This document shows positions 4,972 through 26,454 of a stretch of DNA of 28,349 bases, piece by piece. How positions within the stretch are numbered: the first letter of the stretch is position 1; the number at the start of each line of letters is the position of its first letter. Origin of the DNA: Promethearchaeota archaeon (GTDB lineage Archaea; Asgardarchaeota; Lokiarchaeia; Sigyniarchaeales; SOKP01). A program made the position numbers and the translations under genes. The DNA is taken from NCBI GenBank assembly GCA_048939015.1, contig JBHLPW010000060.1:1-28349 (forward strand), written 5' to 3'. The notes under the pieces are model-generated. The model saw nothing but the letters and a program-made list of their open reading frames with translations. It searched no databases and was not told the origin of the DNA.

Positions 4972-6093
4972 TTATTCTTTAAAATATTCTACTACTTTCT
5001 TTATACATCCAAATGAACTTTTTACTTTACTAATATCACAATTATAGGTTATATTATAAAGAACAATATGTTTTAGCCCAGCTCTAGCATATTCTTCAAG
5101 TTTAGAGATGATCTCATCTGGAGTACCATGTAAAAAGCTCTCATTGCATAACTTTGCAGGGACCTTACTCAATGCGTCAAGCATAGTTTCTCGATCGTAT
5201 TCTGTTGGGAAATAATGAAGAAGACCATAAAATTCTTTTCCAAATGGGTGTGAAAGCCCAAATTTTTCAAAATATTCATTTGATAGAATTAATAAATAAT
5301 TTTTTGCGTAGGCGGATTCTAATAACTCATCACATACACCATGATCTTCATCAATAATTATATTACACCATAACCCAGGTGTTATATCGTCAGGATTACG
5401 TCCAGCTTTTTTCGCTGAATTCTGAATAATTGCAAGTTTTTCTCTGTATGTTTTTGGATCAAAATTAGAAGGTAACCATCCATCTCCTAATCTACCAGTC
5501 ATTTCGCACATTTGAGGACCGTGTGCTGCAATCCATATAGGTGGATATTTTCCTTCTTCATAAGGTTTTATAGATAGAATAGCGTTTTTTAATTTCCAAA
5601 ACTTGCCGTCAAAATTAACTTTTTTTTCATTTTCCCAAAGAAGTTTTATAATTTTTATTGCTTCTTCCAATCTACTTACAGGTTTATCCCATTTTATACC
5701 ATAAGGAACTACATTTTCTCCTTCACCAGTACCAATCCCAAGAATTGCTCGTCCTTTTGATATATGATCTAAAGTTAAAAAGGTTTGAGCAAGAACAGCT
5801 GGATGTCTTCTAAATGTTTCAGTTACACTTGTACCTAATTTAATATTTTGGGTATTCCAAGCAGCAACTGACATTACTGGATAAACGTCGTAAAAATCAT
5901 GGGGACTATTTTGAATATTTGCCATTTCAATAAGATCTGGAGTCCAAATTGATTCTGGAATCCATCCCATTAAATGATCTGCAAACCATACTGAATCATA
6001 ACCACTATTTTCGATTCTTTTTATAGTTTCAATCCCTCTATCAAAAGGAGGGATAAATGTACCCTCTGTACCAATTTTTATATCTATGTCCAT
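4972..6093 (-). CDS. LLM-class flavin/F420-dependent oxidoreductase, phthiodiolone ketoreductase (Rv2951c)-like
   Basis: DSVWFADHL, RRHPAVLAQTFLTLDHISKGRAILGIGTGE, PIWIAAHGP, GDGW and GTPDEI are LLM motifs. ENVVPYGIKWDKPVSRLEEA and HPFGKEFYG match my recollection of the Rv2951c subfamily. Confidence 0.88.
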   Translation of the reverse strand: MDIDIKIGTEGTFIPPFDRGIETIKRIENSGYDSVWFADHLMGWIPESIWTPDLIEMANIQNSPHDFYDVYPVMSVAAWNTQNIKLGTSVTETFRRHPAVLAQTFLTLDHISKGRAILGIGTGEGENVVPYGIKWDKPVSRLEEAIKIIKLLWENEKKVNFDGKFWKLKNAILSIKPYEEGKYPPIWIAAHGPQMCEMTGRLGDGWLPSNFDPKTYREKLAIIQNSAKKAGRNPDDITPGLWCNIIIDEDHGVCDELLESAYAKNYLLILSNEYFEKFGLSHPFGKEFYGLLHYFPTEYDRETMLDALSKVPAKLCNESFLHGTPDEIISKLEEYARAGLKHIVLYNITYNCDISKVKSSFGCIKKVVEYFKE

Positions 6094-6255
6094 TTTCTCA
6101 CTCTTATGTATTTTAGTATTATAATAAAGAAATTCTAAAGATTTTATAAACCTCTAGAATTTTTACATTTATTAAAAGAAGTAAATTAAACCATAAATTC
6201 TGATAAATCAATTGTAAAATATATTAAAACATAATAAAAGAGTTTGATTTAAGTC

Positions 6256-7299
6256 ATGAAGTTTAGTTTCCATATCCCTGTCCCTACACCTCGGCTTGAA
6301 TATATGTTTCAAGGAACAAAAATGGCTGAAGAATGTGGGTTTTTTGGTGTTTTTTATGCAGATCACACCGTAATGTTACCTCCGGGTCCAGGAACATGTT
6401 ATGATGCTTATTGCTTTTTAACTTCATTAGCAATGATAACAAAAAAAATAAAATTATGTACAGGTGTTTCTGATTGTCATCGATTTCATCCAGCATTAAT
6501 GGCACACAAAGTTGCAACTTTAGACCAAATATCTAATGGAAGAGGCATGATAGGACTTGGAGCGGGAGAAGCAATGAATATTGACATGTACGGTATCGAA
6601 AGAAAGAATTCTGTATCAAAATTGCGAGAATATATTATCTTATTGAGAGAATTCTGGACGAAGAAAAAAGTAAGTAAAAAAAGTGAATTCTGGGGAGAAA
6701 TTAAAAAAGCTTATATTCAGATAAAACCTGTTCAGAAGACACCTCCTATTTATGTCGCTGCCAATGGCCCAAAAACCCGTAAACTGACTGGAGAATTAGC
6801 AAATGGTTGGTATCCACTTTATCAACCCCCTTGGCTCTATAAAGAGAAACAAAAAGAGGTTTCTGATTCAGCAAAAGCAACAGGTCGAGATCCAAATGAA
6901 ATTGATTATGTATACGATTGTTTTGTGGCTATTGATGATAAGGACCCTGATAATGCTATTAAAAGATGTGAATTCTTTAAAACCTCTTATCTATTGAATT
7001 CGTTCATTACGAATGAAGCCTATCCAAAATTAGATTTACCGGAAGATTTTAGTGTTCATGATTTTGAAATGACTAGTGTCAATTCAATGGATTACCTAAA
7101 CAATTTAGATAAATTACCTGATACAATTTTACAAGATACGAATTGCCTAGGTACTGTTGATGATGTAATTGCGAGTATAGAAAAATATAAAGAAGCAGGA
7201 GCGACACATATGAGTTTGATGAATAGAGGACCTGATACTAATAAAGTATATGAAATTTTTCGAGATAAAATAATACCTTATTTTGAAGAATTAGACTAA
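6256..7299 (+). CDS. LLM-class flavin/F420-dependent oxidoreductase
   Basis: YADH, HPALMAHKVATLDQISNGRGMIGLGAGE, PPIYVAANGP, ANGWYP, GTVDDV. Divergent from the first LLM gene; 4-bp convergent overlap with the GNAT gene. Confidence 0.88.
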   Translation: MKFSFHIPVPTPRLEYMFQGTKMAEECGFFGVFYADHTVMLPPGPGTCYDAYCFLTSLAMITKKIKLCTGVSDCHRFHPALMAHKVATLDQISNGRGMIGLGAGEAMNIDMYGIERKNSVSKLREYIILLREFWTKKKVSKKSEFWGEIKKAYIQIKPVQKTPPIYVAANGPKTRKLTGELANGWYPLYQPPWLYKEKQKEVSDSAKATGRDPNEIDYVYDCFVAIDDKDPDNAIKRCEFFKTSYLLNSFITNEAYPKLDLPEDFSVHDFEMTSVNSMDYLNNLDKLPDTILQDTNCLGTVDDVIASIEKYKEAGATHMSLMNRGPDTNKVYEIFRDKIIPYFEELD

Positions 7300-7841
7300 A
7301 TCTTCTCCTTTTTTTTCCATTCTTCGGCTAAAATACTCATTATAATTGCATCATGATATGCTCCCTTGGAAAACATAAATTTCCGTCTTCGCCCCTCTTC
7401 AATAAATCCGATTTTTTTATAGGTTTTTATTGCTCTTACATTATAATCATAGACTTGTAATTCGATTCTGTTTAAATTTACTGTGTTAAAACCATATTCT
7501 AATAAAAGTTCAATTGCCTCAGTACCATATCCCTTGTTTTGATACTCTTTTTCTCCAATTGTAATTCCAATTTCTGCCGATCTATTCTTCCAATCTATTC
7601 TATGTATCCCACAGTTGCCAATTAGCTTCTCTGACCCATCTTCATTTGGAAGTGTAATAGCTAAATGAATAGTATCCTCTCTATCTTTTAATTTCTCTAG
7701 CCAGTCCTCTTCTTCCATTCTCGTCATTGGACGATACATGACCAGATATTGAATGATTTCTGGATCATTGAACCACTTTAGGAAAGAATCTATATAATTC
7801 TTTTTAATCGGTCCCAACCTTACTCTCTCTCCCTTTAACAT
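7296..7841 (-). CDS. GNAT N-acetyltransferase, RimJ/RimL family
   Basis: AEIGITIGEKEYQNKGYGTEA (acetyl-CoA motif A), LNRIEL, NVRAIKTYKKIGFIEEG. Confidence 0.92.
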   Translation of the reverse strand: MLKGERVRLGPIKKNYIDSFLKWFNDPEIIQYLVMYRPMTRMEEEDWLEKLKDREDTIHLAITLPNEDGSEKLIGNCGIHRIDWKNRSAEIGITIGEKEYQNKGYGTEAIELLLEYGFNTVNLNRIELQVYDYNVRAIKTYKKIGFIEEGRRRKFMFSKGAYHDAIIMSILAEEWKKKEKI

Positions 7842-7919: not shown

Positions 7920-10835
7920 TTAAAATTCAATACTTCTTCTACGAGCTATCCATTTTACTATCTCAAATGAAACGATGCAGATTAAAGAAATCAAGAAGCA
8001 TACCAACCAATCCATTCCTGTTAAAGGTATAAACATAAAATTGATTCCTAATTCTTCGGCTAAGAAAATTTGCACTCCAGGAATGTATAGTAAAGCAATA
8101 AACAGAAAGAATAATAAGCCAATTAGCACATACATAAATTTATTACTATCTTCGATAAGACTCTTTATTAAAGATTTATTTGGTCTTCTAATCTGGAATA
8201 CTAGAAAACTTTCACAGAAGTATAGAACACACATCATCATTGTCAGGCTTTTACCTATAGTTCTAATCACATTTAATTGTTGAGCGGCCTCGGCATACAT
8301 GACTGCTGGAATATCATATACATGCGGTGGTATTAAAGTATCATCATAATATAGATATCCTGGGACAAGGTTTTCGGGAAAAACAGGATATACTCCTGTT
8401 ATAGTTAAAAAGTAGACTATCATCATGCTTAGAGACAGAAAAGCACCGAATATTAATAAAAGTCTAGATGTATTTTTTGAGAGAATCTCTTCTGAATCTC
8501 TAGGTTTTTGCTTCATCACATCTTTTGAAGTTGTATCAAATGTTAGTATTAAACCGGGAAATATATGCAAAGTCAATGAAAGAAAAGCCCACTGATAATA
8601 AAACGCTTCATCTAAGAAATAGGGTAAATCTAATATAATTGCTAAGATAAACTGAACAATACCTTCAAACACATTGATACAAATATAAAAAAACACAACC
8701 GCACGAATCCTCGCGAATATTCCTCTCCCTTGTTCAATACCTGAAACGATAGAATTAAAAGAATCATCTGAAATTACCATATCTGAAGCTTCTTTTGCCA
8801 CATCAGTTCCTGTGATACCCATAGCTACTCCCGCATCAGCCATATTTAATGCTAAAGCATCATTTACACCATCCCCTGTCATAGCAACAACTTTCTTCTG
8901 CTCTTGATATTTTTCTACAATATCTTCCTTGTGTTCGGGGGATACACGAGCAAAAACCTTAATCCGGCTGAACTCATCATATGTTTTAATGTTTTTAACT
9001 TCTTTCCCTTCTACAGCTATTTCACTAGGATCACTTATTATAGAAATTTGTGATGCAATAGCTCTTGCCGTAGCGGGGGAATCCCCTGTAATCATTACTA
9101 CATCAACTCCTGCTTCATGACACTCTTCTACAGATTCTTTTACTCCTTCCCTTGGAGGATCTAAAATTGTCACAAAACCAATATAAGTCAAATTTGATTC
9201 ACTTATTTTTCTTCCCTCATCTCCTTCTGGAGGTATCTCCATCATTTCTTTGTAGCATAAACTTAAAATTCTATAACCTTGACTAGCATATAAGTCTACA
9301 ATCTCTAAGATTTTCTTCTTTATTTCATCTGTGAATGAGATTTCGCTATCATTATATAATACTTTTGAACAGAGAGGTATTAGAATTTCACTTGCTCCCT
9401 TTGTATAGGAAAGATATACTTGATCTTTTTTATATACCTTAGACATTCGTTTCAAAGAAGAATCAAACGGATATTCGGTAATAGCCTCATAATCTTCAAG
9501 AAGATAATCGCCCATTCCTTTTTGAAATAATACCATTAGTGCTCCTTCTGTGGGAGAGCCAATCACATTCCAATTATAGATTGTTTTTCCTCCGATTTCA
9601 ATTTCATTTTTTACTAAAGCAGAATTATTATTTAAAAAACCAGCTGTTAATAGTAGTTTAAGATGTGGGTATTCATTAATATGTTTAACATAAATATGAT
9701 TTTTAGGGTCATCCATAAGTACAATATCTCCATCAGGAGTGTACCCACTGCCTGTGACTCTAAAAATCGATCCATTTGTCCAGACATGTTGAATACTCAT
9801 TTGATTCTTAGTTAATGTGCCTGTTTTATCTGAACATACAACACTTACACGCCCTAAACTGTCAACTGAAGCAAGGTTCCTTATTATCACACCACGATGA
9901 GCCATTGCAAGAACTCCAGTTATTAAAACTATAGTAACTAATAATGGTATATTGATCGGCATAAGATCAAGTGCAGAATTTAAACTTTCAACAATTTCGG
10001 GTGACCCTCTAGCACCCCAGATAATCAATAATGTAATAAACCAAAAAATGAAAACAATAATCCCTAACCATTTGCCAAAATTATTCATTTTTTGCCGAAT
10101 TGGAATCTCACTTGTTCCCGCTTCTTCTAAACCATGAGAAATTTTCCCAATTTCTGTATTTCCACCAGTTTTTACTACAATCGATTTTCCTGTCCCTGTA
10201 GAAATAAATGTGCCATAAAATACCATATTGTTCCGTTCTCCTATAGAAATTTCACTTTTTTTCAACGCATCTCCTGATTCTAATTTTCTTACAGGTTCAC
10301 TTTCTCCCGTTAAAGATGCTTCATTTACCACAAGATTAAACGACTTTATTATTCTGGCATCAGCAGGGATTTTATCCCCTTGACTTAATACTAGTAGATC
10401 ACCTACAACAATCTCTTTGGTTGGAACCTCTATCTTCTGTCCATCTCTTACTATCGTTGATGTAAGAGCCGTTAATTCGCGTAAAGCCTTAAGCTTTTTA
10501 GTAGCACGATATTGTTGGATAATTGCAACCACACAATTTAGAAGAACGATGAACAAAGTCAATGCAACAGTAATTAAATCTCCCTCTCCACCAATAGCCC
10601 ATGCCAAAATTAGAATTAACGCCCCAATAAGGTATATGACTATTAACCAATTAAATAACGGCGCAAGATATATTTTAATAAAACCTTTAGAAACTTTGGG
10701 GATTTCATTCAAACCGTATTCGTCTAATCTATTCGCAGCTTCTTTTACAGATAAACCCTTCTCAGGATCTGTTTGAAATTCTTTATAGATTTCGTTTAAT
10801 TCAATATTATAATAAGCCTTTTCTGTAGATTCCAT
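7920..10835 (-). CDS. P-type ATPase, P2-like scaffold with non-canonical transport site (M4 PINIP)
   Basis: TGES, CSDKTGTLT, KGASE, DPPR, MITGD, AMTGDGVND, ~10 hydrophobic helices. M4 LMPINIP in place of AIPEGLP; M6 LTLHIFP in place of LVTDGLP. Confidence 0.95.
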   Translation of the reverse strand: MESTEKAYYNIELNEIYKEFQTDPEKGLSVKEAANRLDEYGLNEIPKVSKGFIKIYLAPLFNWLIVIYLIGALILILAWAIGGEGDLITVALTLFIVLLNCVVAIIQQYRATKKLKALRELTALTSTIVRDGQKIEVPTKEIVVGDLLVLSQGDKIPADARIIKSFNLVVNEASLTGESEPVRKLESGDALKKSEISIGERNNMVFYGTFISTGTGKSIVVKTGGNTEIGKISHGLEEAGTSEIPIRQKMNNFGKWLGIIVFIFWFITLLIIWGARGSPEIVESLNSALDLMPINIPLLVTIVLITGVLAMAHRGVIIRNLASVDSLGRVSVVCSDKTGTLTKNQMSIQHVWTNGSIFRVTGSGYTPDGDIVLMDDPKNHIYVKHINEYPHLKLLLTAGFLNNNSALVKNEIEIGGKTIYNWNVIGSPTEGALMVLFQKGMGDYLLEDYEAITEYPFDSSLKRMSKVYKKDQVYLSYTKGASEILIPLCSKVLYNDSEISFTDEIKKKILEIVDLYASQGYRILSLCYKEMMEIPPEGDEGRKISESNLTYIGFVTILDPPREGVKESVEECHEAGVDVVMITGDSPATARAIASQISIISDPSEIAVEGKEVKNIKTYDEFSRIKVFARVSPEHKEDIVEKYQEQKKVVAMTGDGVNDALALNMADAGVAMGITGTDVAKEASDMVISDDSFNSIVSGIEQGRGIFARIRAVVFFYICINVFEGIVQFILAIILDLPYFLDEAFYYQWAFLSLTLHIFPGLILTFDTTSKDVMKQKPRDSEEILSKNTSRLLLIFGAFLSLSMMIVYFLTITGVYPVFPENLVPGYLYYDDTLIPPHVYDIPAVMYAEAAQQLNVIRTIGKSLTMMMCVLYFCESFLVFQIRRPNKSLIKSLIEDSNKFMYVLIGLLFFLFIALLYIPGVQIFLAEELGINFMFIPLTGMDWLVCFLISLICIVSFEIVKWIARRRSIEF

Positions 10836-10956
10836 AATAAGTCTTCCATGATTTTTTAATATAAAGAAAGCATAATTACAGTTGAAATTTCAATGTAATA
10901 AATAACCTATAATAATCATAATTTAAAAAATTAGATATTTATTTTCAAGAAGGATA

Positions 10957-13827
10957 TTAGAATTGTATATTCCTTTCTCGAGCAATGTATTTAAATATTT
11001 CAATACCAATAATTCCAGGTAAAGCAAATAATATGCAGATTATCCAATCTGTTCCGCTAAGGAACATAAAATTTATTTGTAAATCTAGCCCGAAAACATC
11101 ATTTACATAGTGATTAACAAGATATGAAAATGTAATATAGAGAATATGCAATATAAACGTAAACAAACATATGAACAGTAAAGAAAAGCTAAATTCTTCC
11201 TTCAGACTTCTATAGAGAGATTTATTTGGTCTTCTAAATGTCCAAATAAAATTGGTTTCGAGGATGAAAATTGTAGTAATAAACATAGTTCTTGCTTTTT
11301 GTGCTACCAATTCAGAATAAGGACTGGCTGGATTAATATAACTAATAACAGGATTAAGATTCCAATTATTCAATGGTATTATTTGCCATAACGTTAATTG
11401 TAAAACTAAAACTAATCCAAGTCCCATAAGAAAGGCTTGAATTAATAACATTATCCACATATTTTTATTTAATATTTGTTCTTCATCTCTAGGTGGTTCA
11501 AACATAATATCCTTAGGGTGAGTATCAATTACTAATGCTAAGGAAGGAAGAGAATGCACAACTCCGAAGATATAAATATGTTGCCATTCTGAACTAAAAA
11601 GATCAAATGTCGGTATGAATTCATATGTAAAAAAGATAATAGCTTCCATTATATTTAAACATATAAAAAAATAGATAATTGTCCTAATTTTTGAAAATAA
11701 ACCACGTCCAATTCTAACACCTTTTTCAATAGAAGTAAAGTTATCATCTGAAATGACCATATCAGCCGTTTCTTTTGCCACATCTGTTCCAGTAATACCC
11801 ATAGCTATGCCTGCATTAGCCAGTTTTAAAGCTAGTGAATCATTAATTCCATCACCTGTCATAGCAACTACCTGTTTTTTATTTTGATAATATCTGACGA
11901 TGATTTCCTTATCTGTTGGCTCTACACGAGCGAAAACTGAGACCTTTTCAAGATCTAAATTTGTGGAATCTTTCAATTGAGAACCTTCGACAACAGTATC
12001 TCCTTCTTTGAAAATACCCATTTGTGATGCAATAGTCTTCGCAGTAGCCGGATGATCACCGGTAATCATAATGACTTTAATTTTTCCATTTTGGCATTGT
12101 TCTACAGATTCTTTAACACCATTTCTTGGAGGATCCATAATCGATACAAATCCTAATAAAATCAGATCCTTTTCTACATCTTCTCTTGTAGGTGTATTAA
12201 TATCAGAAAGTTTATTGTAAGCTAATGCAAGAGTTCTATAACCTTCATTTGCACGAAATTCTATCAAATCCAATATGTCTTTCCTTAAAATAGAATCTAA
12301 TAATTTTATGTTTCCATTAATTTCAATTCTTGACGATAGGTTGATGAGCTTTTCTGGTGCTCCCTTAGAAAATACAAAAACATCATCTGTATTGTTATTG
12401 GATCTACAAATGGTACTCATACGTTTTAATTCCGAGGTAAATGAAAATTCATTAATAAATTCATATTTCTTTTTTATATCGTATGGGATATATCCTGCTT
12501 TCTCAACAAGTACTAATAGAGAAGCTTCAGTTGGTGATCCTAATGCTCGCCTTACCGCCATTTCTTTTTTATCTTTCAATTTAATTTTAACATCTTCAAA
12601 TATAAGTTGAGCATTATTATTTAGCACCATTGAATCTATTAAGTTAACAAATGAAGGATTCTCTTTCAAACTGATAGGACTACTATTATAATAGATTTCT
12701 CCTTCAGAATCGTACCCAGAACCTGAAACATTATATTCATCTTCATTGATCCAAAATTTTTCAACTGTCATTTCATTTTTGGTTATTGTCCCTGTTTTAT
12801 CTGAACAAATTACAGATACTCGACCAAGTGATTCTATTGATGACAGATTCTTGATAATGACTCCTCTTTGAGCCATGTTAAGAACTCCAGTTATCAATAC
12901 TAATGTTGATAATATAGGGAGATTAATTGGCAAAATATTAGTAGCCCTTAATATAGAACTAACGAGAGCACCACTTATTTCTGATTGAATAAAATTGCCT
13001 TCAATTGCCAACAAAGAAAATTTGTAAATAATCAAGATTATCAAATTAATTAGAACAATTGTTCCTAAAATATACCCTAATCTATTTAATTTTCTCGTAA
13101 GTGGGATATCTTCAATACTTCCCATTTCATTAAGTGTTTCAGATATTCTTCCGATCTCTGTATTAATACCTGTGCCAGTAATTAATGCTTTTGCTCTCCC
13201 TGTATATACATATGTTCCCATAAATAGCATATTCGATTGTTTTTGTATTAAAACATTTTTTTCTTGAATTTCCTCAGTTGTTTTTTCTACTGGTTCACTT
13301 TCTCCAGTCAGAGGAGCTTCATCAACTGAAAGATTAATGTGACTTATAATTCTCCCATCCGCGGGAACTTTATCTCCTTGTTCTAATACCATAATATCTC
13401 CTGGAACTAAATCTCTATTAGGTACTTCGAGTTGATTTCCATCTCTAATTATTGTTGCTTTTAGTGCGGAAATCCTATGTAATGATTCTAATGCTTTCTG
13501 AGCGCGAAATTGTTGAATAACAACCGTTGCAGAATTCAAAAATACAACTGTGAACGTAATAATTGTGTCTTCAGCGGAACCCAAAATTACTATAATTACA
13601 CCTGTTATAATAAGAATTAGAATTAAGAAGTTGAAAATCGGAGCTAAATATATTTTCCAAATTGATTTTTTTATCTTTGGTAATTCATTATATCCATATT
13701 TTAAATAAATTTCATTTAATTGTGATGATTTTAAACCATGGCTTACATCAGTATTGAAAATTTTAATTAGGTTTTCAATAGGTTGATTATAATAAGGGAT
13801 TTCACTTCGTATATCTGATAATGACAT
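10957..13827 (-). CDS. P-type ATPase paralogue, P2-like scaffold with non-canonical transport site (M4 PINLP)
   Basis: TGES, CSDKTGTIT, KGAPE, DPPR, MITGD, AMTGDGIND, DDNF. M4 NILPINLP; M6 GVVHSLP. Confidence 0.95.
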   Translation of the reverse strand: MSLSDIRSEIPYYNQPIENLIKIFNTDVSHGLKSSQLNEIYLKYGYNELPKIKKSIWKIYLAPIFNFLILILIITGVIIVILGSAEDTIITFTVVFLNSATVVIQQFRAQKALESLHRISALKATIIRDGNQLEVPNRDLVPGDIMVLEQGDKVPADGRIISHINLSVDEAPLTGESEPVEKTTEEIQEKNVLIQKQSNMLFMGTYVYTGRAKALITGTGINTEIGRISETLNEMGSIEDIPLTRKLNRLGYILGTIVLINLIILIIYKFSLLAIEGNFIQSEISGALVSSILRATNILPINLPILSTLVLITGVLNMAQRGVIIKNLSSIESLGRVSVICSDKTGTITKNEMTVEKFWINEDEYNVSGSGYDSEGEIYYNSSPISLKENPSFVNLIDSMVLNNNAQLIFEDVKIKLKDKKEMAVRRALGSPTEASLLVLVEKAGYIPYDIKKKYEFINEFSFTSELKRMSTICRSNNNTDDVFVFSKGAPEKLINLSSRIEINGNIKLLDSILRKDILDLIEFRANEGYRTLALAYNKLSDINTPTREDVEKDLILLGFVSIMDPPRNGVKESVEQCQNGKIKVIMITGDHPATAKTIASQMGIFKEGDTVVEGSQLKDSTNLDLEKVSVFARVEPTDKEIIVRYYQNKKQVVAMTGDGINDSLALKLANAGIAMGITGTDVAKETADMVISDDNFTSIEKGVRIGRGLFSKIRTIIYFFICLNIMEAIIFFTYEFIPTFDLFSSEWQHIYIFGVVHSLPSLALVIDTHPKDIMFEPPRDEEQILNKNMWIMLLIQAFLMGLGLVLVLQLTLWQIIPLNNWNLNPVISYINPASPYSELVAQKARTMFITTIFILETNFIWTFRRPNKSLYRSLKEEFSFSLLFICLFTFILHILYITFSYLVNHYVNDVFGLDLQINFMFLSGTDWIICILFALPGIIGIEIFKYIARERNIQF

Positions 13828-13919: not shown

Positions 13920-14882
13920 TTATACTTTAAGTTCTTGAGGGCTTCCCAATAAATCTTTTAAAACATGATATTTCTTTCTAATAGTGGTACTTGAAAATTT
14001 ACTAGTTTTTTCTACTAGACTTTGAGTGAAAATCTTCCTATTGTCAAGTGTTTGTCCAATATAATAGATTAAGCCCGCAGTAAATGCTTTATAGTTAAGA
14101 TTCTGAATTTGGCTATACGGAATTTTATTCAATATTTTATCTGCTAATAATAACATTTCGATTTTAATTTTTTCATATTCAATCTTTTCAGAAAAGAACT
14201 CCTGAACTTCATTGTATGGTATATTATTTATATCTTTTTGAAAAACAATCTTTATTCTACTTTTTATCTCATTTTCGATATCTGCAATTGTTTTTTTCTC
14301 CTTTAACATATTCTCAGTTCTTTTCACTTTCAGCATTGCATTATTCAACATCTTTTTATTTATCTTGTGTCCCAATTCTCTCGAGACTTTAATGAATTGC
14401 TCTATTCTAATGTGAGTAGTATCCTTTATACGCATCCATACGATTGCGAGAAAAATTATTATCATATTTTGGTAATTATGTCGATGGTATTTATTATATT
14501 TTAGATATCTATCCTTAATTTCTTTAAATATTACGTTATCTATGTTCAATCCGATACTATGGCTCTTTAATAATTCAATAGTCTTCTTTTGCTCAGTAAA
14601 TTCACTTTCATAATCACGGAACCATTTTTCAAGAGTCTTAATTCTCTCATATTTTTCTTTAATCACAGGATCTTGGAGAGCTTTAGAATCACTTATCCTA
14701 ATTCTTCTTTCATAGTCTCTTTGTGAATCTGTAAAGAAGTCACTTGTAGAACTAGTATTTTCAAAAGTTTTACCATCCATTATTAGACCACAATCTTGAC
14801 AAACAACAAATCCTTTGTCTTGTTTGACGTTTCTATGTGGACATTCAGAGATTTCTGGTGCTAAATTCTTCTTATTCTTCAA
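13920..14882 (-). CDS. Highly divergent TFIIB/TFB-like protein (Zn ribbon plus cyclin-fold repeats)
   Basis: N-terminal CPH...VCQDCG zinc ribbon. C-terminal AFTAGLIYYIG...FTQSLVEKTSKFSSTTIRKKY parallels the TFB second cyclin repeat/HTH (AAAxxYIA...TQxxVA...EVTIRxRY). TTG start. Confidence 0.75.
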   Translation of the reverse strand: MKNKKNLAPEISECPHRNVKQDKGFVVCQDCGLIMDGKTFENTSSTSDFFTDSQRDYERRIRISDSKALQDPVIKEKYERIKTLEKWFRDYESEFTEQKKTIELLKSHSIGLNIDNVIFKEIKDRYLKYNKYHRHNYQNMIIIFLAIVWMRIKDTTHIRIEQFIKVSRELGHKINKKMLNNAMLKVKRTENMLKEKKTIADIENEIKSRIKIVFQKDINNIPYNEVQEFFSEKIEYEKIKIEMLLLADKILNKIPYSQIQNLNYKAFTAGLIYYIGQTLDNRKIFTQSLVEKTSKFSSTTIRKKYHVLKDLLGSPQELKV

Positions 14883-15621: not shown

Positions 15622-16557
15622 TTAAATTAGTTTACTTTTAATCTGTTTGGCACGACTTCGCAAAGTCACTTCCGTAATCTTTGCAATCTCTGCTACGCGT
15701 GATTGAGTCTTGCGAATGCATCCATTCTTAGCAGCTATGTAAATACAAGCTGCGGCTAGTCCCTTCGGATCTTTTCCTGTTCGTTTAAGACCATTTTTAG
15801 AAGCATCTCTAAGCATATTAATTGCATTTTTCTGAATTTGAATTGGAAGGTCTAACTCATTACCAAATCGAAAAACTAAACTTTCAGCAGTAATTGGTTG
15901 ATATCTTAAATTTAGCTCTGGTAATACTTCACGAATAATCATAGCTAAACTTCTATGAACTGTTCGCCGTGGTGTTAATGATGCTTCACATATCTCATCT
16001 AATAATCGTGGGAAATCATGAACTCTAATTGCAGCATATAAAGATCCAGATATAAAACCATTGATAGACCTTCCCATGGTTAGTTTCTTTTTTGCTACAA
16101 TACTGTATATTTTCCATGCTGTTTCAGCTATATACTCAGGAATGTTAAGTTTTGAAGTCAGCATTTTTAGTTTTGGTTTTGCTTCCCAAAAATTGCGCTC
16201 TATACTTGAAATTAATGAATTTTGAATTTTTGAAAGGCGAGAAAAAAGGGCTTGTTCTTTTGCGCCAATTGATTTACCTTTACTATCTGTTTTTGTGTTC
16301 GGAAGCATTGTCCTCGGTCCAAAGTCTCTCCAACGCGGTTCAGTCCTACGCCTGTTTTGAATCTCTTCTATTGTATACGCACGTCTCTCATTACCCACAA
16401 ATGTTCTTTCAAAAATTACACCGCAGTTTAAACATACTTTATTTCCATCTCGTGACTCAATAAATGGATTACTACAGCACTCTGTTTGGGGTAGTCGATT
16501 TTCATCAAAATTTTTATTTACAAGACGAGATCGATACTGTTCATATTGTTCATTCAT
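15622..16557 (-). CDS. tfb: Transcription initiation factor IIB (TFB) paralogue
   Basis: Zn ribbon CCSNP...CLNCG, B-reader-like GNERRAY, SIERN linker, GRS and GKDPKGLAAACIYIA cyclin repeats, TQSRVAEIAKITEVTLRSR HTH. ATG at 16557 preferred over the GTG at 16599. Confidence 0.92.
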   Translation of the reverse strand: MNEQYEQYRSRLVNKNFDENRLPQTECCSNPFIESRDGNKVCLNCGVIFERTFVGNERRAYTIEEIQNRRRTEPRWRDFGPRTMLPNTKTDSKGKSIGAKEQALFSRLSKIQNSLISSIERNFWEAKPKLKMLTSKLNIPEYIAETAWKIYSIVAKKKLTMGRSINGFISGSLYAAIRVHDFPRLLDEICEASLTPRRTVHRSLAMIIREVLPELNLRYQPITAESLVFRFGNELDLPIQIQKNAINMLRDASKNGLKRTGKDPKGLAAACIYIAAKNGCIRKTQSRVAEIAKITEVTLRSRAKQIKSKLI

Positions 16558-16660
16558 AATTAAATTCAAGCAAAAATTTTCTAAAAGACGATTTATCACA
16601 GATATTAAAAAATCTTAATAATGTCTTAATATACGTGATATGCTTATATACGAAAATCGA

Positions 16661-24474: not shown

Positions 24475-26454
24475 TTAAAGATTTTTTAATTTTTCTTGTT
24501 CTTTTTTCTTCTTTTTTTCTAATTTTTTCTTTTCCTTTTCTAATTTTTTTCTTCTTTTTACTTCTTGCTTTGCTTCCTTTTCTTTTTGTTTTCTTTCTTG
24601 TTTTAATCTTTCAAGCTCTTGTTTTTCTTTTTCAATGGCCTCTAATTCTTTTCTTTCTTTTTCTATTCGTTCTCGTTCTAATCTGATTTCCTCTTGTTTT
24701 TCTCTTTCTATTTTTTCTATCCTTGCTTTTTCTAGTTGTTCCTGTCTCAATCTCTCTTTTTCTTTTCGAACTCTTTCTTGTCGCTCTCTTTCTTGCCTTA
24801 TCTTTTCTTGTCTTTCTCTTTCTTCTCTCTCTCTCTCCAATTTTTCTTTTCTTTCTTTCTCTAAACGAGCTTTTTCTATTCTTTCTTTTTCCTTTCGTTC
24901 TTCTTCCTCAATTTCAAATATCCATTCATTAACCTTTTGAAGTAATTCTTGTTTTTCTTTTAAAGGTAATCCAAAATTTGGTTCCTTTTTCGTATAGATA
25001 TTAGCATACTTACTCATTTCCCAAATTTTTGTTTGCTCAGTTGTAGTTGCACTTACTCCTATTTGTCTCATACTTTCCCTAGCGATTTCAAATGCTTGTC
25101 CAATAGATCTCATTTCATAATCACCATCTATAACATTTCTTAAATATATAAAAATTTCTTTAAAACTAGGATTAGGAGGATTAGGTAAGGGTTTAAATTC
25201 TACTTTTTTTGATTTTAATGTTTCTAACTCAAATTTTTCTTGTTTTTCATCTGATATTTTTGTAGTGGTAAGACTAGGTTTCTCGACATCATTTTCAATA
25301 AGGTATTTGGGGTATTGTTTGATTTTAGTTAATTCTGGAGGTTCCTTCTTTCCTTTTCTTATAAATTGGACTGGCCAACTAACAAATGCATACAATCGGT
25401 CTTCTGCAGAGGTAAATATTGTTCCTTTAGATGACTTTTTATTCATTGATTCTATTTTATTCGAAGAAATTTGTGGAATATTAGAATTAAGTGTTATTGA
25501 TGCCTTTTCTAAAATAGAAAACAGATACATTGGATCAAATTCAAGATTAGAATAAGTATTTTTCAAATAATCAATATTACCATCTATAATACTTATATTT
25601 ACGTTAGATATTGTTTCGTGTAATAGCTGATCTACTCCGAAAATAATCCCATTTATTCCTGCTGTTGAATTTAGGTAAGCATTATCTGTATTTCCCTTCA
25701 TCTTTTCAGAAATTAAAATCTGATTATAATTATCCCAATGAGTACTTAATAACATATGACCTTCTTTAGCAATTTGATATGAGTCATCTTGGCGGATTTT
25801 TTCCATCATCTCTAAAAAAATGTCTTTATTTGGAATGAAAACATTTCTCATTAATGCTCCCTTTATGAAAGATAAATGTTCTTCCGATTTATAAGACAAA
25901 TTAACGGGGACTTTAATCACTTTTTCTGCTATAATAACTTCTCTATCCTCTTCTAGAGTTATATCTCCAGAGGTAGCCATATGGTCATAAACAAAGTCAG
26001 GAAGCACTAATCCTGTTAAGATTCTATTGTCGGTAATATATTTACCAGATTCTAATTCAAATTTTAGATAATAGTAACCTAAACCAAAGAGGAAATAAAG
26101 TGTTCCTTGTGGAGTTTCAATTGAATAATCATAGCCAGTTAGAAAGATAACTGGATCTGAGACTATTTTTATGACTGGATGATGAACATAAGTTCCTAAT
26201 GTTGGATAACCTAATAGATCACTCCAACTAGGGATCATAAAAAGAGAATCATGGGGATATAGTTTATTCTCATTTCTTTGCTTTTCCATTCGTTCCTTTT
26301 CAAGTCGTTCTTTCTCAAGCCGTTCTTTTTCAAGCCGTTCCTTTTCAAGCCGTTCCGTTTCAAGTCTTTCTTTCTCAAGCCGTTCCTTTTCAAGTTGTTC
26401 TTTCTCTTGCCTTTCTTTTTCTAATTGGTCCGCATTCGTTTTTTCCATTCCCAT
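24475..26454 (-). CDS. Hypothetical protein: N-terminal (LEKER)n repeats, globular core, Pro-rich linker, helical domain, long E/R/K-rich C-terminal helix
   Basis: 659-aa ORF with extreme charged composition at both ends; no recognised family for the core. Confidence 0.85.
   Translation of the reverse strand: MGMEKTNADQLEKERQEKEQLEKERLEKERLETERLEKERLEKERLEKERLEKERMEKQRNENKLYPHDSLFMIPSWSDLLGYPTLGTYVHHPVIKIVSDPVIFLTGYDYSIETPQGTLYFLFGLGYYYLKFELESGKYITDNRILTGLVLPDFVYDHMATSGDITLEEDREVIIAEKVIKVPVNLSYKSEEHLSFIKGALMRNVFIPNKDIFLEMMEKIRQDDSYQIAKEGHMLLSTHWDNYNQILISEKMKGNTDNAYLNSTAGINGIIFGVDQLLHETISNVNISIIDGNIDYLKNTYSNLEFDPMYLFSILEKASITLNSNIPQISSNKIESMNKKSSKGTIFTSAEDRLYAFVSWPVQFIRKGKKEPPELTKIKQYPKYLIENDVEKPSLTTTKISDEKQEKFELETLKSKKVEFKPLPNPPNPSFKEIFIYLRNVIDGDYEMRSIGQAFEIARESMRQIGVSATTTEQTKIWEMSKYANIYTKKEPNFGLPLKEKQELLQKVNEWIFEIEEEERKEKERIEKARLEKERKEKLEREREERERQEKIRQERERQERVRKEKERLRQEQLEKARIEKIEREKQEEIRLERERIEKERKELEAIEKEKQELERLKQERKQKEKEAKQEVKRRKKLEKEKKKLEKKKKKEQEKLKNL
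26291..26395 (-). repeat. 15-bp coding minisatellite, about 7 copies, encoding LEKER
   Basis: Plus-strand units cgttccttttcaagt, cgttctttctcaagc, cgttctttttcaagc, cgttccttttcaagc, cgttccgtttcaagt, ctttctttctcaagc, cgttccttttcaagt. Confidence 0.9.

What the first reader, a model, noticed from the sequence alone, without database searches (positions are those of the whole stretch)
8545..11580. Coordinated remodelling of the remaining membrane site: His replaces the M6 Asp in both pumps
Seen: M6 is SLTLHIFP (His at 8565-8567) and FGVVHSLP (His at 11554-11556), against SERCA NLVTDGLP, so N796 and T799 are lost and D800 becomes His. M2 has QQxRA instead of QExxA. M5 N-x-x-E (INVFE, LNIME) and an M8 Glu (FCES, ILET) are retained. 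The paralogues are otherwise well diverged, so the shared changes imply selection for a new site rather than decay. Inference: a His/Glu/Asn site could suit proton coupling, an anionic headgroup or a soft metal. It differs from true P4 pumps, which have an M5 Lys-Asn.
Basis: partly seen in the sequence, partly recalled or inferred. Interest (0 to 1): 0.7.

Follow-up and report, generated by a model that had tools for sequence, protein, structure and literature searches.

The report
Asgard ion pumps with rebuilt binding site
Two neighbouring membrane pumps in an Asgard archaeon belong to an undescribed branch of the calcium-pump family in which one ion site has been erased and the other rebuilt around an invariant histidine, so they almost certainly pump something other than two calcium ions, but what they pump is not yet known.

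Summary
His757 of the 971-aa pump (window 8565-8567) and His758 of the 956-aa pump (11554-11556) sit three residues before the conserved M6 proline. That is where canonical P2 pumps have the Ca-binding Asp (SERCA D800).

The change is a family signature, not a quirk of two genes. A clade with support 1.0 is sister to canonical prokaryotic P2A-type pumps. It carries M4 P-[I/F/W/V]-N-[I/L/F]-P instead of PEGLP, M6 His, M5 N-x-x-E, M8 Glu and M2 QQ.

In more than 300 checked sequences the states are strictly two: non-E/N/H/E/E, or E/G/D/E/(E/Q). No intermediates were seen.

The clade is centred on Asgard archaea, in about 10-11 of 18 sampled families. A few copies occur in Nitrososphaeria, Bathyarchaeia and Dehalogenimonas.

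The same genome also has a canonical Ca pump, a true P3A H+ pump and a Cu pump.

Best reading: active pumps in which Ca site II and the acidic entry funnel are removed and a single site-I-like centre (Asn, Asn, Glu, His, Glu) is kept. The substrate is untested. A borderline divalent metal is my first guess and proton coupling the second.

No paper found describes the clade. The scan noted the same gene pair under another first-reader finding on this window.

The parts
7920..10835 (-). P-type ATPase gene 1 (P0001, 971 aa), member of the His clade
   Evidence: ORF and translation. Pfam E1-E2_ATPase, Cation_ATPase_N/C and Hydrolase. Best NCBIfam match is IIA, but 487 bits against a cut-off of 798. 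AF2 pLDDT 86, P2-type fold.
10957..13827 (-). P-type ATPase gene 2 (P0002, 956 aa), a paralogue from another subclade of the His clade
   Evidence: It is 42% identical to P0001 and sits in a separate subclade in the tree.
8556..8579 (-). M6 motif SLTLHIFP of P0001; His757 codon at 8565-8567, replacing the canonical Asp
11545..11568 (-). M6 motif FGVVHSLP of P0002; His758 codon at 11554-11556
9945..9959 (-). M4 motif PINIP of P0001, replacing PEGLP: Glu to Ile and Gly to Asn. It lies in the unwound stretch of M4.
   Evidence: The AF2 model has a helix break at residues 290-295.
12916..12930 (-). M4 motif PINLP of P0002
8664..8678 (-). M5 INVFE of P0001: Asn721 and Glu724 retained (SERCA N768/E771 positions)
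   Evidence: Glu is invariant in all 62 rows of alignment A1.
11644..11658 (-). M5 LNIME of P0002: Asn and Glu retained
8208..8219 (-). M8 FCES of P0001: Glu875 retained (SERCA E908 position)
   Evidence: (aligned to the SPCA1 Asp).
11254..11265 (-). M8 ILET of P0002: Glu retained
10503..10517 (-). M2 QQYRA of P0001: canonical Q-E becomes Q-Q
   Evidence: Q 27/31 in the clade against E 94/98 in canonical pumps.
13501..13515 (-). M2 QQFRA of P0002
9816..9830 (-). Phosphorylation motif DKTGT of P0001, intact
12787..12801 (-). Phosphorylation motif DKTGT of P0002, intact

Best explanation
The two genes encode active ATP-driven pumps of a distinct, mostly Asgard, sister branch of the P2A (Ca2+-pump-like) P-type ATPases.

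Shown:
- The side chains that make Ca site II in canonical pumps are replaced by hydrophobic or neutral residues: the M4 Glu and the first M6 Asn.
- So is the M2 Glu that I recall lining the cytoplasmic acidic entry funnel.
- Site-I-type ligands are kept under strict selection: M5 Asn and Glu, and M8 Glu.
- The bridging M6 Asp is always His, and a new Asn appears in the unwound part of M4.

Inferred:
- The pump has a single occlusion centre made of Asn295, Asn721, Glu724, His757 and Glu875 (P0001 numbering).
- It binds one cargo per cycle from the cytoplasm in E1 and releases it outside in E2P.
- His acts either as a nitrogen ligand or as the protonatable switch that helps release.
- Two carboxylates plus one imidazole plus amides balance one divalent ion. 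As I recall, they resemble the transmembrane sites of ZIP and CDF transporters. My first choice of cargo is therefore a borderline divalent metal (Mn2+, Fe2+, Zn2+, Co2+ or Ni2+).

Rough odds: about 0.85 that the pump is functional with a changed, non-'two Ca2+' site; about 0.35-0.4 that the cargo is such a metal.
For: The clade:
- It is a clean split with support 1.0.
- It is sister to 101 canonical representatives when rooted with the genome's own P1B and P3A pumps.

Signature counts:
- Clade against canonical representatives.
- 128 proteins picked from species genomes by the M4 motif alone: His 115/115, M5 Asn and Glu 116/116, M8 Glu 114/114.
- Strict two-state pattern with no intermediates: 189 against 31.
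- M8 Glu 30/31 in the clade against E 36 and Q 57 of 98 in canonical pumps. This fits a pump that depends on the site-I position.

Functionality and fold:
- Catalytic motifs are intact.
- The AF2 model has pLDDT 86 with M4 unwound at the motif. The fold matches SERCA, SPCA, H,K-ATPase and Na,K-ATPase.

Genomic setting:
- The same genome has a canonical Ca pump with PEGL / N..E / NIATD, a P3A pump above its equivalog cut-off, and one CPC copper pump. It has no Zn/Co/Fe-type P1B pump and no Nramp.
- The tandem pair is kept in all 8 sampled genomes of the same family and in a 2.3-Mb complete genome.
Against: - No substrate evidence of any kind exists.
- No metal regulator, chaperone or riboswitch lies next to the genes, either in the window or in 118 other loci.
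- The genome already has 4 ZIP genes, 6 CDF genes and FeoB.
- About 7 of 18 sampled Asgard families lack the clade, so it is not essential.
- A hydrophobic residue at the M4 Glu position is also typical of proton pumps and flippases.
Confidence: 0.6

Rival explanations
1. Proton pump, or proton-coupled monovalent-cation pump. The His/Glu pair acts as the proton acceptor and donor, by analogy with the Asp/Asn/Arg centre of P3A H+-ATPases.
For: - The M4 Glu is replaced by Ile, Val or Phe, as I recall for P3A pumps. The genome's own P3A has PVALP.
- The acidic entry residues are neutralised.
- The M2 Asn100 is conserved, 29/31.
- His is a classical proton carrier (general knowledge).
- A complete Promethearchaeota genome has only the tandem pair as pumps of this class at E<=1e-30.
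Against: - This genome already has a bona fide P3A pump (973 bits against a cut-off of 615).
- P3A pumps keep the M6 Asp (NDLP), whereas this clade never does.
- Two conserved Glu plus two Asn are more than a proton relay needs.
- K+ coupling gained no support. TrkH and KdpA were not found in any of 61 sampled Asgard genomes, whether or not they carry the clade.
Confidence: 0.2
2. Still a Ca2+ (or Mg2+) pump, but with one ion per ATP bound at the site-I position. His serves as a built-in counter-charge, like the basic residues that fill a lost site in other single-site pumps.
For: - The closest solved and profiled relatives are Ca pumps.
- M5 N-x-x-E and the M8 Glu are kept.
- The review PMC10654040 notes a His acting as internal counter-ion in a P1B-4 pump, and a Ca-uptake pump (CtpE, P6) that lacks the M6 Asp.
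Against: - Known single-site Ca pumps, as I recall, keep site II (M4 Glu, M6 Asn/Asp). Here exactly those residues are removed.
- Imidazole is a poor ligand for Ca2+ and Mg2+.
- A canonical Ca pump coexists in this genome and in others.
- Scores fall far below both Ca-pump equivalog cut-offs.
Confidence: 0.12
3. Non-metal cargo: an organic cation such as a polyamine, or a lipid headgroup, handled as in eukaryotic P5 and P4 pumps. The M4 motif P-hydrophobic-polar-hydrophobic-P would form the gate.
For: - PIN(I/L)P resembles the PISL motif of P4 and the PPELP/PPALP motif of P5 (motifs from memory).
- The acidic funnel is lost.
- The clade is centred on the archaea closest to eukaryotes.
- P4 pumps are thought to be unique to eukaryotes and their origin is open (PMC10654040).
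Against: - P4 and P5 profile scores (105-110 and 240-253 bits) are about the same as for the canonical Ca-pump paralogue (99 and 214). All are far below the cut-offs.
- The tree places the clade next to P2A-like pumps.
- The M5 Lys of P4 pumps is absent.
- Two membrane Glu are conserved.
- No conserved partner subunit lies beside the genes.
Confidence: 0.06
4. Decayed or non-transporting relic of a Ca pump.
For: The canonical Ca ligands are lost.
Against: - The new residues are invariant over a deep clade.
- All catalytic motifs are intact.
- The reading frames are full length in hundreds of genomes.
Confidence: 0.02

Closest known systems
P2A Ca2+-ATPases (SERCA, SPCA1/PMR1, Listeria LMCA1)
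   Same: - Ten-helix architecture with N- and C-terminal cation-ATPase domains.
- Best sequence, profile and fold matches.
- M5 N-x-x-E, the M6 Pro and the M8 Glu position are shared.
- Sister position in the tree.
   Different: - M4 Glu becomes a hydrophobic residue and M4 Gly becomes Asn.
- M6 Asn and Thr are lost, and M6 Asp becomes His.
- M2 Glu becomes Gln, and the M1 Gln becomes Pro.
- The hinge GDGVNDAP becomes GDGVNDAL.
- Scores lie below both equivalog cut-offs.
- Known single-site Ca pumps keep site II; this clade keeps the site-I side instead.
P6 ATPases (CtpE of mycobacteria; PMC10654040, PMC5615198)
   Same: A prokaryotic P2-like family defined by loss of the M6 Asp, with an unexpected function (Ca uptake).
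   Different: CtpE keeps PEGL in M4 and has Ile, not His, in M6. This clade loses PEGL and always has His.
P3A H+-ATPases
   Same: A hydrophobic residue at the M4 Glu position, a conserved M2 Asn, and few acidic residues in the membrane.
   Different: - P3A pumps keep the M6 Asp and have an M5 Arg.
- The genome's own P3A scores 973 bits on TIGR01647, whereas the two pumps score 327-341 against a cut-off of 615.
P4 lipid flippases
   Same: The M4 motif has Ile at the Glu position followed by a small polar residue.
   Different: - There is no M5 Lys.
- Two membrane Glu are kept.
- No Cdc50-like partner is seen.
- The profile score is 105-110 against a cut-off of 431.
- The overall similarity is to P2.
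P1B-4 metal pumps (His in the M6 HEGxT motif)
   Same: A His in M6 next to a carboxylate, discussed as ligand or internal counter-ion (PMC10654040).
   Different: The architecture is different: P1B topology, an SPC motif in M4, and no M7-M10 of the P2 type. The His is adjacent to the acidic residue, not in its place.

Membership tests
P-type ATPase superfamily | DKTGT phosphorylation motif, TGES, MxTGD, GDGxND; E1-E2_ATPase and HAD domains | tested here: met
   TIGR01494 scores 298 and 281 bits against a cut-off of 62.
P2A Ca2+-ATPase (SERCA/PMR1 type) | M4 PEGL with the Ca-binding Glu | tested here: not met
   PINIP / PINLP. Glu 0/31 in the clade against 98/98 in canonical representatives.
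P2A Ca2+-ATPase (SERCA/PMR1 type) | M6 N-x-x-T-D with the bridging Asp | tested here: not met
   S-L-T-L-H and F-G-V-V-H. His 31/31 in the clade against Asp 91/98 in canonical pumps.
P2A Ca2+-ATPase (SERCA/PMR1 type) | M5 N-x-x-E and M8 Glu (site I) | tested here: met
P2A Ca2+-ATPase (SERCA/PMR1 type) | NCBIfam equivalog score cut-off (TIGR01116 703 bits, TIGR01522 798 bits) | tested here: not met
   434 and 487 bits for P0001; 450 and 445 bits for P0002. The canonical paralogue is also below cut-off, at 597 and 609 bits.
P3A H+-ATPase | M6 Asp proton site and TIGR01647 cut-off of 615 bits | tested here: not met
   His replaces the Asp. Scores are 341 and 327 bits. The genome's own P3A scores 973 bits.
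P4 lipid flippase | TIGR01652 cut-off of 431 bits; M5 Lys; Cdc50 partner | tested here: not met
   110 and 105 bits. M5 is N-x-x-E. No conserved partner lies next to the gene in 118 loci.
P5 ATPase | TIGR01657 cut-off of 618 bits; PP(E/A)LP in M4 | tested here: not met
   240 and 253 bits against 214 for the canonical paralogue. The M4 motif has Ile, not a second Pro.
P6 (CtpE-like) | PEGL kept, with M6 Asp replaced by Ile (PMC10654040) | tested here: not met
   PEGL is lost and M6 has His. No CtpE sequence was aligned here.
His clade described here (unnamed) | M4 P-[IFWVL]-N-[ILF]-P, M6 H-x-x-P, M5 N-x-x-E, M8 E and M2 Q-Q together; monophyly | tested here: met
   Both proteins carry all five features. 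The clade has support 1.0.

The most novel reading that the evidence does not exclude
The clade is a new P-type ATPase family with a cargo unlike that of any P2 pump. At the far end of this reading, it is the archaeal relative of the lineage that gave eukaryotes their large-substrate pumps (P4/P5).
- Its M4 motif already has the form P-hydrophobic-polar-hydrophobic-P.
- Its acidic cation funnel is gone.
- It would move an organic cation or a lipid headgroup across the Asgard membrane.
Probability: 0.06. Interest if true: 0.9.

Novelty: new variant of a known kind. Interest (0 to 1): 0.6.

Why it matters
P-type ATPases are among the best understood pumps, and their ion specificity is read from a handful of membrane residues. 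This is a deep, well conserved branch in which those residues are swapped as a block: site II erased, and site I kept but with His for Asp.

It sits in the archaea closest to eukaryotes and is annotated everywhere as a 'Ca2+-transporting ATPase'. Those annotations are probably wrong. Ion budgets inferred for Asgard archaea, including claims about Ca2+ signalling based on these genes (PMC7997004), then need revising.

A recent review expects further prokaryotic P-type families (PMC10654040), and this is a concrete candidate. The cultured Lokiarchaeum ossiferum carries three members, so the clade is open to experiment. Finding the cargo would also test how far the 'site residues predict substrate' rule extends.

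Tried and rejected
1. Gene neighbourhood as a clue. In the window and in 118 loci the recurrent neighbours are a subtilase, PanB, a GNAT, a luciferase-like oxidoreductase and a UFM1-ligase-like protein. This looks like lineage synteny with no transport or metal link.
2. Riboswitches or other known RNAs. None were found in the window at E<=1.
3. K+ uptake role by complementarity.
   - The genome has no TrkH, no Kup, and no KdpB-like hit in the own-genome P-type search.
   - TrkH and KdpA were also not found in any of 61 sampled Asgard genomes, including the families that lack the clade.
   - So there is no complementarity.
4. 'Extreme conservation'. The first 120 hits were all above 70% identity, but complete genomes show 58% (Lokiarchaeum) and 48% (Thor). 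That is close to the 42-44% of the canonical Ca pump. The idea was dropped.
5. P4/P5 kinship by profile scores. The scores are no better than for the canonical paralogue.
6. Long CtpH/CtpI-like proteins of about 1,550-1,700 aa among the hits. They are canonical PEGL / D types.
7. ESM Atlas look-up. It returned only generic P-type clusters.
Context came from genome-contig loci instead.
9. Pocket geometry. Structure prediction returns no coordinates, so distances and side-chain orientation could not be measured.
Full report
**What is there.** The window has about 30% G+C. Near-identical homologues are labelled as Asgard archaea. It carries two tandem minus-strand genes for P-type ATPases:
- P0001, window 7920-10835, 971 aa
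- P0002, window 10957-13827, 956 aa

Both have the full domain set of P2-type cation pumps. Their best NCBIfam matches are the two Ca-pump equivalogs, but far below the curated cut-offs: 487 against 798 bits and 450 against 703 bits. The two proteins are 42% identical.

**Check of the observation.**
- SLTLHIFP is at 8556-8579, with the His757 codon at 8565-8567.
- FGVVHSLP is at 11545-11568, with the His758 codon at 11554-11556.
- QQYRA and QQFRA are in M2, INVFE and LNIME in M5, and FCES and ILET in M8.
- HMMER alignments to solved pumps put the His on the M6 Asp of the Listeria Ca pump (nLvnDslP) and of ATP12A (dLgtDiiP).
- The M5 Asn and Glu fall on the canonical N-x-x-E.
- The M8 Glu falls on the SPCA1 Asp that corresponds to SERCA E908.

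SERCA residue numbers in this report are from my memory of the literature. The alignments themselves are tool results.

**It is a family, not two odd genes.** I aligned 132 full-length representatives (50% identity clusters) from a search of 1.84 billion proteins.
- Thirty-two of them form one clade, as an exact split with FastTree support 1.0.
- Rooted with the genome's own P1B and P3A pumps, this clade is sister to the 101 canonical representatives and is not nested among them.
- P0001 and P0002 lie in different subclades, so the duplication is old.

Clade against canonical representatives:

| Position | Clade (31 His-bearing representatives) | Canonical (of 98) |
|---|---|---|
| M4 Glu position | I/F/V/W/L 31 | E 98 |
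| Next M4 residue | N 29 | G 88 |
| M6 | H 31 | D 91 |
| First M6 Asn position | Y/F/V/I and others | N 92 |
| M2 | Q 27 | E 94 |
| M1 | P 27 | Q 88 |
| M5 | N 28, E 31 | N 92, E 93 |
| M8 | E 30 | E 36, Q 57 |

The last row matters. The site-I ligand on M8 is more strictly kept in this clade than in ordinary prokaryotic Ca pumps.

**Independent samples.**
- I scanned one genome per prokaryotic species with a degenerate DNA pattern for MPINIPLLxT[IVM]. It gave at least 119 loci.
- In the 128 proteins found, M6 His was 115/115, M5 Asn and Glu 116/116 each, and M8 Glu 114/114.
- In 220 further proteins from two homology searches the pattern was strictly two-state. There were 189 with non-Glu/Asn/His/Glu/Glu and 31 with Glu/Gly-or-Ala/Asp/Glu/Glu-or-Gln, and no intermediates.

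**Who has it.**
- Loci from the scan are almost all Asgard: Thor-, Prometheo/Loki-, Heimdall-, Odin-, Hod- and Hermod-labelled MAGs, Atabeyarchaeum, and the cultured Lokiarchaeum ossiferum.
- A few are Nitrososphaeria, one is Bathyarchaeota, and one is a complete Dehalogenimonas genome.
- One 'Aerophobetes' contig shares the window's synteny and is probably misbinned.
- In a sample of 61 Asgard genomes the clade is all-or-none per family, present in 10-11 of 18 families.
- The tandem pair is present in 7 of the 8 sampled genomes of the window's own family; the eighth has its only copy at a contig edge. It is also present in a complete 2.3-Mb Promethearchaeota genome that has no canonical P2A pump.
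- Lokiarchaeum ossiferum has three members, at 58, 45 and 38% identity.

**The rest of the genome.** The same genome (about 95% complete) also encodes:
- a canonical Ca pump with PEGLI, N-x-x-E and NIATDGIP (contig C87)
- a true P3A H+-type pump, 973 bits against a cut-off of 615 (C72)
- a CPC copper pump (C85)

So the two pumps are not the cell's only candidates for Ca2+, H+ or Cu+.

Other ion transporters found: 2 CorA, 4 ZIP genes, FeoB, 6 CDF and a K+ channel. MgtE, Nramp, TrkH and Kup were not found, and no KdpB-like hit appeared in the own-genome P-type search.

**Structure.**
- The AF2 model has mean pLDDT 86 and pTM 0.81.
- It has the ten-helix P2 fold, with M4 broken exactly at LMPINI (residues 290-295).
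- Its best matches are SERCA2b, SPCA1, H,K-ATPase and Na,K-ATPase in E2-like states, with TM-scores of 0.73-0.78.
- Coordinates are not returned, so I could not measure the pocket.
- That His757 lines the site is inferred from its exact positional equivalence to the bridging Asp.

**How it most likely works.** In canonical pumps, as I recall from the SERCA literature:
- Site II is built from the M4 Glu, M4 carbonyls, the first M6 Asn and the M6 Asp.
- Site I is built from the M5 Asn and Glu, the M6 Thr and Asp, and the M8 Glu.
- Acidic residues on M1 and M2 line the entry.

In this clade every site-II side chain and the M2 acid are replaced by hydrophobic or neutral residues. The site-I ligands on M5 and M8 are kept. 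The bridging Asp is His, and a new Asn sits in the unwound M4 stretch. The only conserved polar residues inside the membrane helices are Asn100, Asn295, Asn721, Glu724, Gln748, His757 and Glu875.

I therefore read these as single-site pumps working from the site-I position, which is the opposite solution to known single-site Ca pumps. Two carboxylates, one imidazole and two amides balance one divalent ion. From memory, they resemble the ZIP and CDF transmembrane metal sites. My first guess is a borderline divalent metal (Mn, Fe(II), Zn, Co or Ni), exported in the usual E1-to-E2P direction. The genome has no Zn/Co/Fe-type P1B pump and no Nramp. This last step is inference only.

**Rivals.**
- A proton or proton-coupled pump with a His/Glu relay is the main rival. 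A hydrophobic M4 residue and loss of the acidic funnel fit it. Against it, a real P3A pump is present, and P3A pumps keep the M6 Asp.
- A one-Ca2+ pump with His as built-in counter-charge is possible but chemically awkward. It is also redundant with the canonical pump.
- A P4/P5-like large-substrate pump is the most exciting reading and is not excluded. However, profile scores for P4 and P5 are no higher than for the canonical paralogue. The tree puts the clade beside P2A, and the two membrane Glu argue for a cation.
- Decay is excluded by the conservation.

**What gave nothing.** Neighbouring genes, riboswitch search, K+ complementarity and the Atlas look-up were uninformative.

**Literature.**
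- An Asgard transportome study lists these genes as orthologues of a putative Ca2+-ATPase and takes them as support for Ca2+ signalling (PMC7997004).
- A 2023 review of P-type ATPases describes P1-P6 and says P4 pumps are unique to eukaryotes.
- The same review notes that CtpE (P6) lacks the M6 Asp, and that a His acts as internal counter-ion in a P1B-4 pump. It expects more prokaryotic families (PMC10654040).
- My four full-text searches found no paper describing this clade. That is not proof that none exists.

**Verdict.**
- The inference of selection for a new site is supported.
- The substrate remains open.
- This is a new variant (a candidate new subfamily) of a known kind of pump. It is of real interest to P-type ATPase and Asgard biologists, and it can be tested directly.

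Noticed in passing
The genome search sample of 61 Asgard genomes; own genome: TrkH and KdpA were not found in any of 61 sampled Asgard genomes of at least 85% completeness. The same searches ring in 11 and 6 of 14 control genomes. Kup was also not found in this genome. How these archaea take up K+ actively is unclear; only a K+ channel was seen here (contig C12).
   Followed up: partly
window 8853-8855 (P0001 Leu661) and the matching position in P0002: The highly conserved hinge motif GDGVNDAPAL reads GDGVNDALAL in this clade: Leu 27/31 in the clade against Pro 93/98 in canonical pumps. This is a clade-specific change in the P domain, outside the membrane site.
   Followed up: no
G000 contigs C87:30009-32852, C72:45131-47596, C85:41218-44046: The same genome holds a canonical P2A Ca pump, a P3A H+-type pump above its equivalog cut-off, and a CPC copper pump with an N-terminal metal-binding domain and a long Cys/His-rich tail.
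   Followed up: partly
L089 (Dehalogenimonas complete genome), L015 and L027 (Nitrososphaeria), L054 (Bathyarchaeota): Full-length members of the His clade occur in a few non-Asgard genomes, all of the IF(T/M)TAH(A/S/T)IPP subtype. This suggests horizontal transfer out of, or into, Asgard archaea.
   Followed up: partly
L022 (contig labelled Candidatus Aerophobetes bacterium): This contig carries the same arrangement as the window (two tandem His-clade pumps and a luciferase-like oxidoreductase), and its P0001-like protein has matching M4-M8 site motifs. It is probably an Asgard contig binned wrongly.
   Followed up: no
window 7296-7841 (-) and 4972-7299: A GNAT acetyltransferase lies directly downstream of P0001 on the same strand, followed by two luciferase-like oxidoreductases. 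The GNAT recurs downstream of the pump in 10 other loci and the oxidoreductase in 6. No functional link is evident.
   Followed up: partly
window 13920-14882 (-) and 24475-26454 (-): Two sizeable ORFs (320 and 659 aa) have no Pfam match at E<=0.01. The first lies directly upstream of the pump pair, next to a TFIIB-domain gene at 15622-16599.
   Followed up: no
representatives P0147 and P0130: Rare clade members have lost parts of the signature. P0147 has VS/SE/…F/Q and no His, and P0130 has Ile for the M8 Glu. They may be decaying copies or a further change of function.
   Followed up: no
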